DNA of 7,498 nucleotides from a virus (IMGVR_UViG_2671180338_000015); one strand, 5' to 3'. Shown: positions 1-4,415, counted from the stretch's first letter. Notes: generated by a model not told the origin, from the sequence alone. Program-made: numbers and translations.

Positions 1-438
1 GCCCATACCGGCGGCTTACCATCCGGATACTGGACCTTGTTTGTAAAAACTACGCTTTCAATAAATTTTTCCCCATAGCAACAAGGGCACTGCTTTTTAC
101 TCGCTGCGCTGCGGGCATAATCCTCAAAAGCGTACGAAGCCATAATGCGCATCACTACCGGTTTTATTTCTGCCGGAAGTTTTCTCAACGCCGCCACACG
201 ATCGCACCGACTGAGTGCATAATCTGCCAGTAATTCTGTTGCCCGCGCCCTGTCATTCATACTGATGCCCATTTTCCCCAGGAACGCAGAAAACCCCATC
301 TCAGCCCGATTCTGTGTCATGCCCTGCGCGGCCATCACATCAGTGATACTCAGCGCATCTTTTGACGTTGAGGCCGATGCATCGGTCAGGCAAGGGGATT
401 TTGGGGAGTAGTATTTCGGTAAATCTTCCAGTTTCATT
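1..438 (-). CDS. Q-like putative late-gene antiterminator, second copy; partial, 3' end lies beyond the window start
   Basis: ATG at 438..436. My translation gives MKLEDLPKYYSPKSPCLTDASASTSKDALSITDVMAAQGM... through ...QYPDGKPPVWA at the window edge, about 93% identical to the 176-aa ORF at 640..1170. Absent from the ORF track because it has no in-window stop. Confidence 0.5.
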
Positions 439-653
439 TTTTGACCTGCTCTTCATGCATTATGGGGTAAATCTTCACCCCCAGACGTCCACCAGATACT
501 GGCTGACCACGAACGATATTGATTTCATCAAACTGCTCATCGTCCATTAACACTCCCGCATGTGTCAGTGCATCCAGTGGTGCTTTCAGGATATTGTCCA
601 GGTCACGACGGCGCTTATCCGGTGGCTCTGCAATAATCTTTATCGCCAGTCTT
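434..653 (-). pseudogene. rusA: rusA 3' fragment (C-terminal about 73 codons); an ATG at 739 opens a 101-aa chimeric frame 434..739
   Basis: ORF track 434..739: after residue 26 (LSGRLAIKIIAEPPDKRRRDLDN...) it is near-identical to the C-terminus of the full rusA at 1167..1541. The first 26 residues are read from the Q-like 3' region in another frame. No good SD upstream of 739. Confidence 0.6.
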
Positions 654-1170
654 CCGGACAGGCAACTTTTACCACCTCCCTGACTTTTTTCCATTCTTCC
701 CAGTAAGACGGATACACACCTTTCGTACACTTTGCCCATACCGGCGGCTTACCATCCGGATACTGGATCTTGTTTGTAAAAACCTCGCTTTCAATAAATT
801 TTTTTCCGTGACAGCAGGGGCACTGTTTTTTGCTCGCCGCGCTACGGGCATAATCTTCAAACGCATACGAAGCCATAATACGCATCACTGCCGGTTTTAT
901 TTCTGCCGGGAGTTTTCTTAACGCCGCCACGCGATCACACCGACTGAGTGCATATTCTGTCAGCAATTCTGTTGCCCGCTCTCTGTCATTCATACTAATG
1001 CCCATTTTCCCAAGGAACGCAGAAACCCCCATCTCAGCCCGATTCTGTGTCATGCCCTGCGCGGCCATCACATCAGTGATACTCAGCGCATCTTTCGACG
1101 TTGAGGCCGATGCATCAGTCAGGCCGGGGGATTTTGGGGAGTAGTATTTCGGTAAATCTTCCAGTTTCAT
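640..1170 (-). CDS. Q-like putative late-gene antiterminator (176 aa) with a Cys cluster; last 7 codons are read out of rusA-derived sequence
   Basis: ORF track 640..1170. Sits directly downstream of rusA with an ATGA start/stop overlap at 1167..1170, the usual position of Q in lambdoid phages. Contains CPCCH plus further Cys residues, suggestive of zinc binding. Family assignment is from gene order and motif, not a search. Confidence 0.5.
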   Translation of the reverse strand: MKLEDLPKYYSPKSPGLTDASASTSKDALSITDVMAAQGMTQNRAEMGVSAFLGKMGISMNDRERATELLTEYALSRCDRVAALRKLPAEIKPAVMRIMASYAFEDYARSAASKKQCPCCHGKKFIESEVFTNKIQYPDGKPPVWAKCTKGVYPSYWEEWKKVREVVKVACPEDWR

Positions 1171-1387
1171 TTTTTGACCTGCTCTTCATGCATTATGGGG
1201 TAAATCTTCACCCCCAGACGTCCACCAGATACTGGCTGAGCACGAACGATATTGATTTCATCAAACTGCTCATCGTCCATTAACACTCCCGCATGTGTCA
1301 GTGCATCCAGTGGTGCTTTCAGGATATTGTCCAGGTCACGACGGCGCTTATCCGGTGGCTCTGCAATAATCTTTATCGCCAGTCTTC
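735..1387. repeat. Tandem direct repeat, copy B
   Basis: Same alignment as copy A. Homology ends at 653/1387, where copy A continues into the Q-like 3' end and copy B into the rusA 5' half. Confidence 0.9.
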
Positions 1388-1541
1388 CGGACAGGCTTAA
1401 TTTCAGTCGCTGCTGACGGACAATAAGCGCCACATCCCGGCGATAACGCTCACCGGCTTTTGATACAAAATATGTGTTGTCACGACGTCGCCAGTAAGTA
1501 TTCACCGTCGGCGGATAAGGTAAAATAAACTCATGGCGCAT
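1167..1541 (-). CDS. rusA: Crossover junction endodeoxyribonuclease RusA (Holliday junction resolvase), 124 aa
   Basis: ORF track 1167..1541. Shows RusA hallmarks (LPYPP..N.Y, PDKRRRDLDN, DAL, MDDEQ, GGRL) matching recalled E. coli RusA. ATG at 1541..1539 overlaps the stop of the upstream gene. Confidence 0.85.
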   Translation of the reverse strand: MRHEFILPYPPTVNTYWRRRDNTYFVSKAGERYRRDVALIVRQQRLKLSLSGRLAIKIIAEPPDKRRRDLDNILKAPLDALTHAGVLMDDEQFDEINIVRAQPVSGGRLGVKIYPIMHEEQVKK

Positions 1542-1798
1542 CAGCGCAGCACCTCCTGCACCAGTTTTTCAAACTTTCCGACTCTGGTTTCCAGCTCTGC
1601 CACACAGTCCACCAGCTCATCTACTGCTTTCTGTGCGCGATGCTTCGCCTGCATCAGTTCCCGAAGCGCGGGTACCATATCTTTACGGATAGCGTCTTTT
1701 GTTATGCCCGTTTTTTCGAGTTGTTCAGCATGACGCAGCATTTCCTGCGCGTGTTTACGCAATTGTTCAGGGGTAAAAGTCATTGTCTGGTTGTTCAA
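1541..1798 (-). CDS. Small hypothetical phage protein (80-85 aa), translationally coupled to rusA
   Basis: ORF track 1541..1798. The track start is a TTG at 1798 with GGAG about 10 nt upstream; an in-frame ATG lies at 1783. Its stop TGA overlaps the rusA ATG by one base. Product is a charged, helix-like protein. Confidence 0.55.
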   Translation of the reverse strand: MNNQTMTFTPEQLRKHAQEMLRHAEQLEKTGITKDAIRKDMVPALRELMQAKHRAQKAVDELVDCVAELETRVGKFEKLVQEVLR

Positions 1799-2073: not shown

Positions 2074-2132
2074 TGTCAACGCCACGATGTTTGACCGTTA
2101 TTTGCCATTTTCATGCCCGCTAAATACTTTCG

Positions 2133-2930
2133 TTACTGATGCTGTCCGCTTTCCACCATTTCATCATCACTGATTGGCGTTGTGTTTTTGGTCAGCACTC
2201 CAGCTTTACGTTTCTCTTTTAACCGGTAACTCTCTCCTTTGATATTCAGCGTGGTTGAGTGATGTAGCAGCCGATCCAGGATCGCTGTTGCCAGTACGTG
2301 ATCTCCGAACATTTCTCCCCAGTCTGCGAACCCTTTGTTTGACGTCAGTATGATGCTCGCTTTTTCATATCGACGGTTCAGTAGCCGGAAGAACAGACTG
2401 GCTTCCTCTCTGTTCATCGGCAGATAGCCTATTTCATCCAGGATCAACACCCGGGCATAACTCAGTTGCTGTAGCTGACGCTCCAGCCGGTTTTCCTGTT
2501 TCGCTTTCATCAGTGTCGCGATCAGTCTGTCCAGTGGCATAAACAGTACCCGATGTCCCGCATCCACCGCTTTCACGCCAAGAGCTATGGCCAGATGAGT
2601 TTTTCCGACACCAGGAGGGCCCAGCAGGATCACGTTTTCGCTGCGCTCCACGAACGCCAGACCAGCCAGTTCCCGGACAACCTTACGGTCGATGCCCGGC
2701 TGGAAGGTAAAGTCGAACTGCTCCAGCGTTTTGACCCACGGCAGACGAGCCTGCTTCAGCCTGGACTCCATACCGCGCTGATGCCTGCCGTTCCATTCCT
2801 GCTGTAGCGCCATGCACAGGAACTCCCGGTAGTTCAGCTCTTTTTTAGCTGCCTGTTCCAGCAGGCTTTCAACGTGATAACTCAGATGCTCCATTTTCAG
2901 GCGACTCAGCAGGACTTCCAGTTCATGCAT
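2133..2930 (-). CDS. istB: IstB, IS21-family ATP-binding helper protein (Walker A GPPGVGKT)
   Basis: ORF track 2133..2933 (GTG at 2933, ATG at 2930). Has the [12 protein letters not shown]-loop and a DEIGY Walker B-like motif. Size equals IS21 IstB. Confidence 0.85.
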
Positions 2931-4102
2931 CACAACAGCTCCTCATAGGCACTCAGTGGTCGATGTTCCACCTGACTGACCTGCTGCCAGAGCGGGGCGT
3001 GATGCTCCGGCACTGTCTGCCAGCCAGACGATGCTGAACAGAGGCGATGTGAGGCCACCAGTTTCTCATTACTGTAGATCCGCAACTCGTCATCCAGCGA
3101 TATTCGTATCGATACCGGCTGACCACACAGCGCTTCGGGAACGCTGTAACGATTACCACCAACCTCGATATAGCTGTCCCAGGACACATGGCGGATATCG
3201 AAGTAACTGGTATCGAAGTCTGTATCCGGTAACGGCTGCAGATGTTCCTGCTCCAGCGCGAAGCGCTGTTCCGGCGTTTCTTTGAACTGGCGAAGCTCCC
3301 GTTTGTCAGCCACATCGGCTATCCATTGCTCCAGTTGTTGATTGACATGAGTGAAGCTGTCGAACCTGCGGTACCGGACGAAGAAGTTCTCCTTGAGGTA
3401 TTTCACCATCCGCTCAACCTTACCTTTTGTTCTGGCCCTGCGTGGACGGCATGCCCGTGGCAGGAAGTTATAGTGGTCAGCCAGCAACAGGAATCCGGAG
3501 TTGAACACGACTTTCCCGTTGTTATTCTTCAGCACCGCAGCCTTCTGGTTATCAACCAGCACCGTTTTCACACAACCACCGAAGTAGCGGAAGGCGCGAA
3601 CCAGTGATTCGTAGGTATGCTCAGCATCCTGTTTTGGTGCGGCGAAGACATGGAAGCTGCGGGAGAACCCCAGCGTATTAACCGCAAAGTTAACTTTGCA
3701 CCGTTGCCCGGCAACCTCCACCTCAACTTCGCCCCAGTCATGCTGGAGCTGGTATCCAGGCTGAGTTTCGAAGCGAACTGTTCTTTTTGACGGACGCATT
3801 TTACGTTTGGGCTGGATGTAGTAACGCAGCATGGAACGTCCGCCCGTATAACCCATTGCCTTAATCTCCGCGAAGATAACCTCGCTATTCCAGACATTCT
3901 CTGCCAGGCGCATGTCGATGTAATCCATAAACGGTTTCAGCTTAACCATTTTGTGGCGGGTCTTTCTGGCTGGCGGTTCAGGGTATTTGAGGTAGCGTCT
4001 GACCGTCCGTTCAGAGCAACCAATCTGAGTCGCAATATCGACGATGTACGCGCCCTGCTGGCGCATTTGCTTTATCATGTAAAAGTCCTCTCTGCTCAGC
4101 AT
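2930..4102 (-). CDS. istA: IstA, IS21-family transposase (N-terminal HTH, DDE-type catalytic domain)
   Basis: ORF track 2930..4102, 390 aa. N-terminus [24 protein letters not shown]... is typical of IstA; stop overlaps the istB start. Confidence 0.85.
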
Positions 4103-4193
4103 GTTGATGTCCTTTCTGGTGTGAGAACCTTAAGGAAACAACATGTTGGGTGGAGCGGACAATCCAAATGGCGAATTACCGTCTTATATCACT

Positions 4194-4204
4194 NNNNNNN
4201 NNNN
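4194..4204. other. Run of 11 N: scaffold or assembly gap of unknown true length
   Basis: Literal n characters in the sequence. Lies exactly at an IS terminus and inside a rusA copy. Confidence 0.98.
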
Positions 4205-4415
4205 CACGGCGGCGCTTATCCGGTGGTTCTGCAATAATTTTTATTGCCAACCTTCCGGACAGGCTTAATTTCAGCCGCTGCTGGCGAACAATAAGCGCCA
4301 CTGCCCGGCGATAACGCTCCCCGGCTTTTGATACAAAATATGTGCTGCCACGACGACGCCAGTAAGTGTTCACCGTCGGCGGGTAAGGTAAAACAAATTC
4401 TATGCGCTCGGTCAT
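4205..4415 (-). pseudogene. rusA: rusA 5' portion (third rusA copy in the window; N-terminal about 70 codons), truncated at the gap
   Basis: ORF track 4176..4415: MTERIEFVLPYPPTVNTYWRRRGSTYFVSKAGERYRRAVALIVRQQRLKLSLSGRLAIKIIAEPPDKRRR then Xs. About 90% identical to the rusA at 1167..1541. ATG at 4415 directly follows the stop of the upstream gene (TAAATG). Confidence 0.7.

What the first reader, a model, noticed from the sequence alone, without database searches (positions are those of the whole stretch)
434..4415. Three rusA copies or fragments in 7.5 kb, belonging to two different nin-region modules
The window holds a full rusA (1167..1541) preceded by an 85-aa gene, a 3' fragment (434..653), and a 5' portion (4205..4415) preceded by the DUF968-like gene. 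The two upstream contexts differ, and the third copy is about 90% identical to the first at protein level. So two distinct lambdoid nin modules are juxtaposed, separated by nested IS elements and a gap. This could reflect IS-mediated rearrangement between resident prophages, or a scaffold join between two prophages that is not contiguous in the genome.
Basis: partly seen in the sequence, partly recalled or inferred. Interest (0 to 1): 0.45.

Follow-up and report, generated by a model that had tools for sequence, protein, structure and literature searches.

The report
Mis-scaffolded Shigella prophage repeats, not three rusA
The three rusA pieces are almost certainly what a short-read assembler produced when it threaded two separate, ordinary Shigella sonnei prophage remnants (each with one rusA and one Q gene) and a multi-copy insertion sequence into one small scaffold, so there is no new biology here.

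Summary
The three RusA-homologous segments are in the record at the stated coordinates. The window is an entire 7.5-kb draft scaffold (CXBJ01000219.1) from a Shigella sonnei-type genome.

In complete S. sonnei chromosomes the two modules are separate loci about 670 kb apart:
- P1: IS2/IS21 nest, helicase remnant, 85-aa gene, rusA, Q.
- P2: hokD, rem, DUF968, rusA, Q.

Each locus has one intact rusA.

The "3' fragment" is a second pass through P1's own rusA 3' end and Q, 100% identical to the complete genome. It is joined to a truncated P2-type Q through an 11-nt overlap, just above GapFiller's 10-nt gap-closing threshold. This junction occurs in no other assembly and in none of 5,426 complete E. 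coli genomes.

The IS21 between the modules is the consensus of an element with at least 11 copies, so nothing links its two flanks. Seven other drafts that look like the same project share the window's rusA protein; five of them join the same modules in conflicting orders across single-N or 11-N gaps.

Verdict: a scaffolding and gap-closure artefact. The one open point is whether IS21 really interrupts P2's rusA in this isolate.

The parts
1..437 (-). 5' 146 codons of the antiterminator Q gene, allele Q-A (the P1 allele). It runs off the scaffold end 35 nt past the last Q-A/Q-B difference.
   Evidence: PF03589 on the homologous copy. Window 1-663 is 100% identical to P1 of complete S. sonnei CP104423.1 (L025). 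Allele table.
434..663 (-). rusA 3' part (codons ~50-124), P1 type. This is a second pass through P1's rusA, not a separate gene fragment.
   Evidence: PF05866 at 36.3 bits. One mismatch to 1167-1396. 100% identical to the complete-genome P1, including G at the SNP (window 507).
653..663 (.). Junction: the 11-nt string TCCGGACAGGC, present in both intact Q and intact rusA. It is the overlap on which the truncated Q-B and the rusA 3' part are joined.
   Evidence: alignment to intact Q and rusA. Junction absent from 5,426 complete E. coli genomes and from GTDB representative genomes. The junction-spanning proteins are found only in this contig. GapFiller closes gaps on overlaps of at least 10 nt (PMC3446322).
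664..1170 (-). Q gene 5' 169 codons, cut off at the junction. It carries the P2 allele (Q-B) from window 1126 downwards and is P1/P2-identical above that.
   Evidence: PF03589 at 80 bits. One mismatch to TUM10008 Q over 653-1182. P2 alleles at all module positions from 415 on.
1167..1541 (-). Full-length rusA (124 aa), P1 type except one base (window 1240, residue 101 Ala) that is P2's base.
   Evidence: PF05866 at 61.8 bits. Differs from complete-genome P1 RusA only at residue 101, G to A, and P2 RusA has A there. This exact protein occurs only in 8 draft contigs with CX**01 accessions.
1541..1798 (-). 85-aa ORF upstream of rusA in P1. No Pfam family.
   Evidence: The exact protein is in 2,758 index blocks, including complete S. 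sonnei chromosomes, always upstream of a 124-aa RusA.
1795..1919 (-). 3' end of a DnaB-type replicative helicase gene, truncated by IS2.
   Evidence: Collinear with the helicase CDS of FDAARGOS_944 up to 1919. An intact 463-aa DnaB_C gene occupies this position in L028.
1919..2074 (+). IS2 left end (about 153-156 nt, including the start of orfA), interrupted by IS21.
   Evidence: 96% to IS2 in L007. 100% over 156 nt to an IS2 copy in L043. The same IS2'/IS21 junction is present in complete S. sonnei genomes (ungapped alignment).
2074..4193 (-). IS21 (istA 2930-4102, istB 2133-2933). It is the consensus of a multi-copy family, and its last 10 nt (TGTCAGCGCC end) fall in the N run.
   Evidence: Pfam rve/Mu-transpos_C_2 and IstB_IS21. 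99% to IS21. 100% over 2,120-2,121 nt to five other IS21 copies of CP104423.1. At least 11 copies per chromosome. Termini.
4194..4204 (.). Scaffold gap of 11 N, equal to the 10 missing terminal nt of IS21 plus 1.
   Evidence: GapFiller trims 10 nt at gap edges. Sister drafts show the same 1-N, 10-N and 11-N runs.
4205..4415 (-). 5' 70 codons of P2's rusA (126 aa when intact).
   Evidence: PF05866 at 28.4 bits. Window 4205-7498 is 100% or 99.97% identical to P2 of sister drafts and complete S. sonnei genomes, where rusA continues intact into Q.
4416..5474 (-). DUF968 (HNH-like) gene of P2.
   Evidence: PF06147 at 210 bits. The exact protein is in 3,132 index blocks, 88 of them on contigs longer than 1 Mb.

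Best explanation
The window is a short scaffold of a short-read draft of a Shigella sonnei-type genome. An assembly graph shared by two separate cryptic lambdoid prophage remnants was written out as one line.

The genome has two loci:
- P1: an IS2 split by IS21, a helicase remnant, the 85-aa gene, rusA (124 aa), and Q allele A.
- P2: hokD/sok, rem, a 92-aa gene, DUF968, rusA (126 aa), and Q allele B.

The two loci are about 670 kb apart in complete genomes. They share near-identical stretches in the rusA 3' end and in Q. IS21 is a 2.1-kb repeat with at least 11 copies.

The scaffold walks as follows: P2 5' part, then the collapsed IS21, then IS2' and the P1 5' part, then the shared rusA 3' end. 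There it takes the wrong branch into Q-B. It then goes back through P1's rusA 3' end into Q-A.

The backward step was sealed on an 11-nt overlap (TCCGGACAGGC) that Q and rusA happen to share. That is enough for a gap closer that accepts overlaps of 10 nt or more.

So the genome holds two rusA genes, not three, and the two nin modules are not shown to be neighbours.

Shown: the separate loci in complete genomes, the allele mosaic, the uniqueness of the junction, the IS21 copy number, and the conflicting sister scaffolds. Inferred: that this assembly was made with a Velvet/SSPACE/GapFiller-type pipeline, and that the junction is a gap closure.
For: 1. The window is the whole of CXBJ01000219.1 of GCA_001257935.1.

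2. Two complete chromosomes carry both loci. In CP104423.1, P2 is at about 1.86 Mb (L008) and P1 at about 2.53 Mb (L025). In CBDDMI010000001.1 they are at about 1.82 and 2.49 Mb. Each locus has one intact rusA followed by one intact Q. CP022672, one of the chromosomes carrying P2, is S. sonnei 866.

3. Window 1-663 is 100% identical to P1 of L025. Removing 664-1396 restores P1.

4. Compared with the P1 locus of L025, the window carries P2's base at every P1/P2-distinguishing position from module position 415 to 773 (Q-B) and at position 301. The rest of window 1127-1921 matches P1 exactly.

5. The P1-to-P2 switch lies in a 56-nt stretch identical in both loci. In sister draft L019 it lies in a different, 69-nt identical stretch.

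6. Q-B stops 104-115 nt after its last allele-specific base, and the scaffold end is 35 nt after the last Q-A-specific base. These are where repeat-bounded contigs are expected to stop.

7. The junction is an 11-nt overlap. GapFiller closes gaps on overlaps of at least 10 nt and trims 10 nt at gap edges (PMC3446322). The Sanger pipeline scaffolds down to 5 read pairs, runs 120 GapFiller rounds, and its authors warn of false joins (PMC5320598).

8. The junction-spanning proteins (176 aa and 86 aa) are found only in this contig. None of 5,426 complete E. coli genomes holds the 70-nt junction, and no GTDB representative genome does.

9. The window's IS21 equals the consensus of five other copies (100% over 2,120-2,121 nt). 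It differs from the P1-linked copy of complete genomes, whose left end is deleted. One chromosome holds at least 11 copies.

10. Sister drafts L018-L022 join the same modules in different orders. Q-A is first in L020, and Q-B is first in L019 and the window. P2 appears twice in L018 and partly twice in L021. The joins are single-N or 11-N gaps at variable positions in Q (module 470, 534, 577, 763, 1117).
Against: No reads were available, so the junction was not tested directly.

The assembly method of GCA_001257935.1 is inferred from the accession style and the 1-N, 10-N and 11-N gap pattern. It was not read from a record.

An 11-nt microhomology is also what a real illegitimate-recombination junction would show.

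P2's contig stops exactly where the IS21 end would abut it (10 missing IS21 nt plus 1 N). In five sister drafts rusA of P2 is intact. This fits a real, isolate-specific IS21 insertion at that one point.

The complete genomes compared are other S. sonnei strains, not this isolate.
Confidence: 0.87

Rival explanations
1. A partly real variant. In this isolate one IS21 copy has truly inserted into P2's rusA at window 4204/4205 (after codon 70), so the 5' rusA fragment is a real disrupted gene. The apparent adjacency to P1 and the Q/rusA repeat are still assembly artefacts, because all IS21 copies collapse into one.
For: P2's contig ends at module position 204, inside a region where P1 and P2 differ every 10-40 nt. 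No repeat explains a contig break there. In five sister drafts the same contig runs on through an intact rusA. The N run (11) equals the 10 missing terminal nt of IS21 plus 1, which is what a 1-N join with 10 nt trimmed would leave. A scaffolder needs read pairs linking rusA to the IS21 left end. IS21 has many copies in this species.
Against: None of the 10 complete S. sonnei chromosomes shown has IS21 in this rusA. None of 10 IS21 copies in CP104423.1 has a rusA flank. The other flank (P2-type rusA positions 204-358) is not in the scaffold. 10-N and 11-N runs occur at other, clearly artefactual joins in sister drafts. No overlap between the two contig ends was found by the pipeline.
Confidence: 0.4
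2. The scaffold is a true picture of the chromosome. An IS21-mediated rearrangement fused the 5' part of P2 to the IS2/P1 locus. A microhomology-mediated unequal exchange at TCCGGACAGGC created a 733-bp tandem duplication of rusA 3' end plus Q 5' part. One copy then acquired the P2 Q allele by recombination.
For: The sequence as deposited. An 11-nt microhomology at the junction is typical of RecA-independent duplication (general knowledge). Shigella genomes are rich in IS-mediated rearrangements. L019 also shows rusA, Q-B, then rusA', Q-A in the same order.
Against: It needs at least four independent events within 4 kb. The duplicated copies differ by 10% in Q, and each matches a different resident prophage allele exactly. 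The L019 'junction' is at a different place and is an N, and L020 has the opposite order. The junction is unique among the indexed assemblies and absent from all complete genomes searched. The bridging IS21 is the consensus of at least 11 copies and is longer than the 300-500-base target fragment size cited for the Sanger pipeline. Its sequence is not that of the P1-linked copy.
Confidence: 0.06
3. The sequenced DNA was a mixture of two S. sonnei variants (or a heterogeneous culture) differing in these prophages, and the assembler merged both haplotypes.
For: Two alleles at one SNP (window 507 vs 1240) and two Q alleles sit in one scaffold.
Against: Both alleles and both Q types are accounted for by the two loci present in every complete genome examined. 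No mixture is needed. Several apparently independent drafts show the same pattern.
Confidence: 0.03

Closest known systems
P1 and P2 cryptic lambdoid prophage remnants of Shigella sonnei, as in complete chromosomes CP104423.1 (L008, L025) and CP022672 (strain 866)
   Same: Window 4205-7498 is 99.97-100% identical to P2. Window 1-663 is 100% identical to P1. Window 1127-4148 matches P1 with three differences in all (window 1240, 3475 and 4146). Gene order, the IS2'/IS21 junction and the helicase truncation point are the same.
   Different: In the complete genomes each locus has one intact rusA and one intact Q, and the loci are about 665-671 kb apart. IS21 at P1 has lost its left ~55 nt and abuts the rest of IS2, not rusA.
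False joins and chance-overlap gap closures by greedy scaffolders and gap fillers (SSPACE/GapFiller) in repeat-rich short-read assemblies (PMC5320598, PMC3446322)
   Same: Single-N and 10-N or 11-N gaps. Scaffold ends and internal breaks lie at repeat boundaries. An 11-nt join is just above the 10-nt closing threshold. Ten nt are missing at a gap edge, matching the 10-nt trim. The same repeat is used twice. Sister assemblies are mutually inconsistent.
   Different: The pipeline used for this particular assembly was not documented here. It is inferred.
E. coli rusA-Q nin-region modules: FDAARGOS_944 (helicase, 85-aa gene, rusA, Q) and TUM10008 (DUF968, rusA, Q). By recollection, also the K-12 prophages DLP12 (rusA, quuD) and Qin (hokD, rem, ydfU/DUF968, quuQ).
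   Same: Same gene orders. 99.7% (FDAARGOS_944) and 96-96.5% (TUM10008) DNA identity to the respective parts of the window.
   Different: None of them has a truncated Q fused to a rusA 3' part. The K-12 comparison was not tested here.
Microhomology-mediated tandem duplication (RecA-independent illegitimate recombination)
   Same: Head-to-tail repeat of 733 bp whose novel joint lies in an 11-nt string shared by the two parental sites.
   Different: The copies are not alike: they differ by 10% over 293 nt, and each equals a different resident locus. The joint is not seen in any independent assembly.

Membership tests
RusA Holliday-junction resolvase (Pfam PF05866) | Profile match above the gathering score | tested here: met
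   61.8, 36.3 and 28.4 bits against a 22.8-bit cut-off for 1167-1541, 434-739 and 4205-4415.
RusA Holliday-junction resolvase (Pfam PF05866) | Full-length domain, so a potentially functional gene | tested here: met
   Met only for 1167-1541 (profile 1-123 of 124). The other two cover profile 44-123 and 1-62. In complete genomes both loci encode full-length proteins of 124 and 126 aa.
RusA Holliday-junction resolvase (Pfam PF05866) | Catalytic acidic residues (Asp70, Asp72, Asp91 of E. coli RusA, from memory of the literature) | tested here: inconclusive
   The strings RRRDLDN and LMDDEQ are present in the full copy and the 3' part, and lie beyond the end of the 70-codon 5' fragment. Equivalence to the K-12 residues rests on recollection. 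No alignment to a solved RusA was made.
Lambdoid nin-region module (replication genes ... rusA ... Q antiterminator) | rusA immediately upstream of, and overlapping, a Q antiterminator gene (PF03589), downstream of replication genes | tested here: met
   PF03589 at 80 bits for 640-1170. A 4-nt overlap between rusA and Q. P1 is preceded by a DnaB-type helicase in L005 and L028. P2 has DUF968, rusA, Q in 10 complete genomes.
Genuine tandem duplication | The novel joint is reproducible in independent assemblies or reads of the same lineage | tested here: not met
   Proteins spanning the joint occur only in this contig. 0 of 5,426 complete E. coli genomes. 0 in GTDB representative genomes. Sister drafts lack it.
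Genuine tandem duplication | The two copies derive from one parental segment | tested here: not met
   Copy A equals P1 (100%). Copy B carries the P2 Q allele at all 35 distinguishing positions from module 415 to 773.
IS21 (IS21 family) | istA (DDE integrase) plus istB (AAA+ helper), about 2.1 kb, TGTCA... terminal inverted repeats | tested here: met
   Pfam rve/Mu-transpos_C_2 and IstB_IS21 at 302 bits. 100% identity over 2,120 nt to IS21 copies of S. sonnei. The right terminus TGTCAACGCC is present, and the left terminal 10 nt fall in the N run.
Single-copy bridging element (needed for the IS-mediated rearrangement reading) | The element between the two modules is unique in the genome, or carries the sequence marks of the P1-linked copy | tested here: not met
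   At least 11 IS21 copies in one S. sonnei chromosome. The window copy has the intact left end and consensus bases, unlike the P1-linked copy.
Scaffolding / gap-closure artefact | Read-level absence of the joints (no spanning reads, repeat-level depth) | not testable with these tools

The most novel reading that the evidence does not exclude
The deposited order is real in this one isolate. IS21 fused the 5' part of one prophage remnant to another remnant. A microhomology-mediated exchange between the Q gene of one prophage and the rusA gene of the other then produced a Q'-'rusA hybrid joint, a snapshot of illegitimate recombination shuffling lambdoid nin regions.
Probability: 0.05. Interest if true: 0.2.

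Novelty: not a real feature. Interest (0 to 1): 0.05.

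Why it matters
It matters only as a caution. Small repeat-rich scaffolds from automated short-read pipelines can contain invented gene fusions. Here these are a 176-aa truncated Q, an 86-aa Q'-'RusA hybrid, and a RusA with one residue borrowed from its paralogue. They can also show invented gene neighbourhoods, and these then enter protein databases as unique sequences.

The genes underneath are ordinary, already annotated parts of two S. sonnei cryptic prophages: RusA, Q, DUF968, hokD/sok, IS2 and IS21. 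If the IS21 insertion in P2's rusA is real, it is one more routine IS hit in a decaying prophage.

Tried and rejected
- Simple recent tandem duplication. Rejected because the copies differ at 31 of 293 positions in Q, and each equals a different resident allele.
- The IS21-like element is ISEc62, as annotated in the first hits. Rejected: only 86% identity to ISEc62, against 99-100% to IS21. The ISEc62 insertions near DUF968 or rusA in E. coli F5505-C1 and AST262 are independent events at other sites.
- Some complete E. coli genome has the junction. The 261-nt query gave 327 full-coverage places, and every one of the 15 listed was a two-piece match about 743 bp apart. A 70-nt query, which cannot be joined that way, gave 0.
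- The copy A fragment is the missing 3' half of the P2 rusA. Rejected: it overlaps the 5' fragment by 60 nt at only 90% identity and is P1 type throughout.
- A third rusA-bearing prophage, suggested by the G/C SNP at window 507/1240. Rejected: G is P1's and C is P2's base in complete genomes.
- One of the other IS21 copies of S. sonnei is flanked by a rusA-like sequence. None of the 10 examined is.
- A GTDB-representative scan for the junction found nothing.
- Not done, because the answer did not need them: homology searches of the large protein databases, structure prediction, and the metagenome scan.

Full report
**What is in the window**

All genes lie on the minus strand. Reading from 7498 down to 1:

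| Window coordinates | Feature |
|---|---|
| 7498-7467 | 32-nt end of an IS600-like element |
| 7466-6749 | three small ORFs |
| 6514-6302 | hokD, with its sok antisense RNA at 6452-6627 |
| 6084-5821 | rem |
| 5754-5476 | 92-aa ORF |
| 5474-4416 | DUF968 |
| 4415-4205 | first 70 codons of a rusA |
| 4204-4194 | 11 N |
| 4193-2074 | IS21 (istA, istB) |
| 2074-1919 | left ~153 nt of IS2, in the opposite orientation |
| 1919-1795 | last ~40 codons of a DnaB-type helicase gene |
| 1798-1541 | 85-aa ORF |
| 1541-1167 | full rusA |
| 1170-664 | Q antiterminator gene, cut off after 169 codons |
| 663-434 | rusA 3' part |
| 437-1 | first 146 codons of a second Q |

The three RusA matches all pass Pfam's threshold. 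The 5' fragment is 89% (DNA) and 92.5% (protein, 62 of 67 residues) identical to the full copy.

The 3' fragment belongs to a 663-nt direct repeat (1-663 vs 734-1396, period 733) that includes two-thirds of Q. The copies differ at 36 positions. Of these, 31 lie in 1-293 (Q interior) and 5 lie in the other 370 nt.

The repeat joint lies in the 11-nt string TCCGGACAGGC (653-663). Intact Q genes contain it (...GTTGCCTGTCCGGAGTGTGG...), and so do intact rusA genes (...AGCCTGTCCGGAAGACTGG...).

**Origin of the window**

The window is the entire contig CXBJ01000219.1 of assembly GCA_001257935.1.

The DUF968 protein is identical in thousands of assemblies, including many chromosomes of about 4.8 Mb. 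One of these, CP022672, is Shigella sonnei strain 866.

In those complete chromosomes the right-hand module (called P2 here) runs hokD, rem, DUF968, rusA (126 aa), Q (273 aa), 65-aa gene, methyltransferase. Both rusA and Q are intact.

The exact 85-aa protein is also widespread. In the same complete chromosomes it sits in a different locus (called P1 here): IS2 remainder, IS21, IS2 left end, helicase remnant, 85-aa gene, rusA (124 aa), Q (284 aa), DUF3927, and a PmrD-family gene (annotated IraM at the matching position in E. coli).

- In CP104423.1, P2 is near 1.862 Mb and P1 near 2.533 Mb.
- In CBDDMI010000001.1 they are near 1.825 and 2.490 Mb.

So the loci are about 665-671 kb apart, on the same strand.

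**Base-by-base comparison**

- Window 1-663 is 100% identical to P1 of the complete genome.
- Window 4149-664 is collinear with P1 but differs at 38 positions. One is window 1240, which makes residue 101 Ala instead of Gly and is P2's base at that site. Thirty-five are the P1/P2-distinguishing sites at module positions 415-773, and there the window carries P2's Q allele. The last two (window 3475 and 4146) lie inside IS21.
- Window 4205-7498 is P2 (100% to sister draft L020, one mismatch to L015).

The scaffold therefore contains two rusA 5' halves, two rusA 3' halves and two Q 5' parts. That is two rusA-Q modules. One 60-nt stretch (604-663 = 1337-1396) is written twice.

Deleting 664-1396 restores P1 exactly. 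Q-B belongs downstream of P2's rusA.

**Why this is an assembly product and not a rearrangement**

1. P1 and P2 are identical over module positions 359-414, 446-514 and 774-1116. The window switches from P1 to P2 inside the first of these stretches. Sister draft L019 switches inside the second.

2. Q-B ends 104-115 nt after its last allele-specific base, and the scaffold ends 35 nt after the last Q-A-specific base. The other scaffold end lies in an IS terminus. All breaks are at repeat borders.

3. The joint is an 11-nt overlap. GapFiller declares a gap closed when the two extensions overlap by at least 10 nt. It also trims 10 nt from gap edges (PMC3446322).

4. The Sanger high-throughput pipeline runs SSPACE down to five supporting read pairs and then 120 rounds of GapFiller. 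Its authors note that both are greedy and can make false joins (PMC5320598). That this assembly came from such a pipeline is my inference from the accession series and the gap pattern.

5. The two ORFs that span the joint (176 aa and 86 aa) exist in no other contig of the 153-billion-gene index. A 70-nt probe across the joint finds no full match in 5,426 complete E. coli genomes. An exact-pattern scan of the GTDB representative genomes finds nothing.

6. The exact 124-aa 'full' RusA, with Ala101, occurs only in eight contigs, all with CX**01 accessions.

7. In those sister scaffolds the same modules are ordered in incompatible ways:

| Sister draft | Order written in the scaffold |
|---|---|
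| L020 | rusA, Q-A, 11 N, rusA', Q-B |
| L019 | rusA, Q-B, N, rusA', Q-A |
| L018 | P2 written twice at 100% identity |
| L021 | part of P2 written twice at 100% identity |

In all five of L018-L022, P2's Q is 'joined' to the IS2/IS21-P1 block through a single N. The positions of that N in Q differ (module 470, 534, 577, 763, 1117). A real inherited junction would have one position.

**The IS21 bridge**

The exact IstA protein occurs at ten further loci in CP104423.1, besides the P1 locus. The window's IS21 is 100% identical over 2,120-2,121 nt to five of them.

The P1-linked copy of complete genomes has lost its left ~55 nt and abuts IS2 orfA. The window's copy has the intact left end.

The 2.1-kb IS21 in the scaffold is therefore the collapsed family consensus. 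It is longer than the 300-500-base target fragment size the Sanger pipeline paper describes, so paired ends would not tie its left flank (rusA of P2) to its right flank (IS2', P1). The adjacency of the two nin modules is unsupported.

**The one open point**

P2's contig stops at module position 204, where P1 and P2 differ every 10-40 nt. No repeat explains the stop. All five sister drafts run through an intact rusA there.

The N run of 11 equals the 10 missing terminal bases of IS21 (TGTCAGCGCC) plus one. That is what a 1-N scaffold join with a 10-nt edge trim would leave. It fits a real, isolate-specific IS21 insertion after codon 70 of P2's rusA.

Against it, no complete genome examined has such an insertion. 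In addition, 10-N and 11-N runs occur at plainly artefactual joins in sister drafts. I put this at about 0.4. It does not change the main verdict.

**Biology underneath**

These are two decaying lambdoid prophages of S. sonnei. Each has a RusA-family resolvase gene overlapping the start of a Q antiterminator gene.

- P1 has a very short nin region (helicase, 85-aa coiled-coil-like ORF, rusA, Q). Close E. coli relative: FDAARGOS_944, 99.7%.
- P2 has hokD/sok, rem, DUF968, rusA, Q. Close E. coli relatives are at 96-97%, for example TUM10008.

All components are annotated families, and nothing about them is unusual.

**Verdict**

The 'scaffold join' reading is supported. The 'three rusA copies' and 'IS-mediated rearrangement' readings are not. 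The feature is not real, and interest is very low.

Noticed in passing
window 6302-6627: A complete hok/sok type I toxin-antitoxin locus. The hokD-like ORF is at 6302-6514 on the minus strand (51-aa Hok core, PF01848). The sok antisense RNA is at 6452-6627 (Rfam RF01794, 112 bits, full length).
   Followed up: partly
window 5744-5993 (L002 1506-1755): A 250-bp segment spanning the end of rem and the start of the 92-aa ORF is polymorphic among S. sonnei genomes. It is present in the window, L015 and L020, and absent in 9 of 10 complete chromosomes examined and in L018, L019 and L021. No obvious direct repeat sits at the deletion ends.
   Followed up: partly
L025 4580-4650 (complete S. sonnei CP104423.1), equivalent to window 4149-4203: The IS21 copy next to P1 in complete genomes lacks its left ~55 nt, and the adjoining IS2 lacks roughly 60 nt (my estimate from reading the sequence). 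This looks like a deletion across the IS21/IS2 joint that should have immobilised this IS21 copy.
   Followed up: partly
window 7467-7498: The scaffold ends in the terminal 32 nt of an IS600-like element (100% to the IS600 end in FDAARGOS_944). The same IS abuts P2 in complete S. sonnei genomes.
   Followed up: partly
window 640-1170, 434-694 and 1167-1541: Three protein sequences called on this scaffold are probably assembly inventions that now sit in public protein collections: a 176-aa truncated Q ending ...VACPEDWR, an 86-aa Q'-'RusA hybrid, and a RusA with Ala101. The first two are unique to this contig. The third occurs only in eight drafts with CX**01 accessions.
   Followed up: yes
L003 and L004 (E. 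coli F5505-C1 and AST262): ISEc62, an IS21-family element 86% identical to IS21, has inserted independently into P2-like prophages of E. coli. One insertion is inside the DUF968 gene with a 6-bp target duplication. The other is further upstream.
   Followed up: partly
L034-L043 (CP104423.1): IS21 is present in at least 11 near-identical copies scattered round one S. sonnei chromosome, next to housekeeping genes (ars operon, rpsJ, csgC, pnuC and others). This makes it a major source of contig breaks in short-read assemblies of this species.
   Followed up: partly
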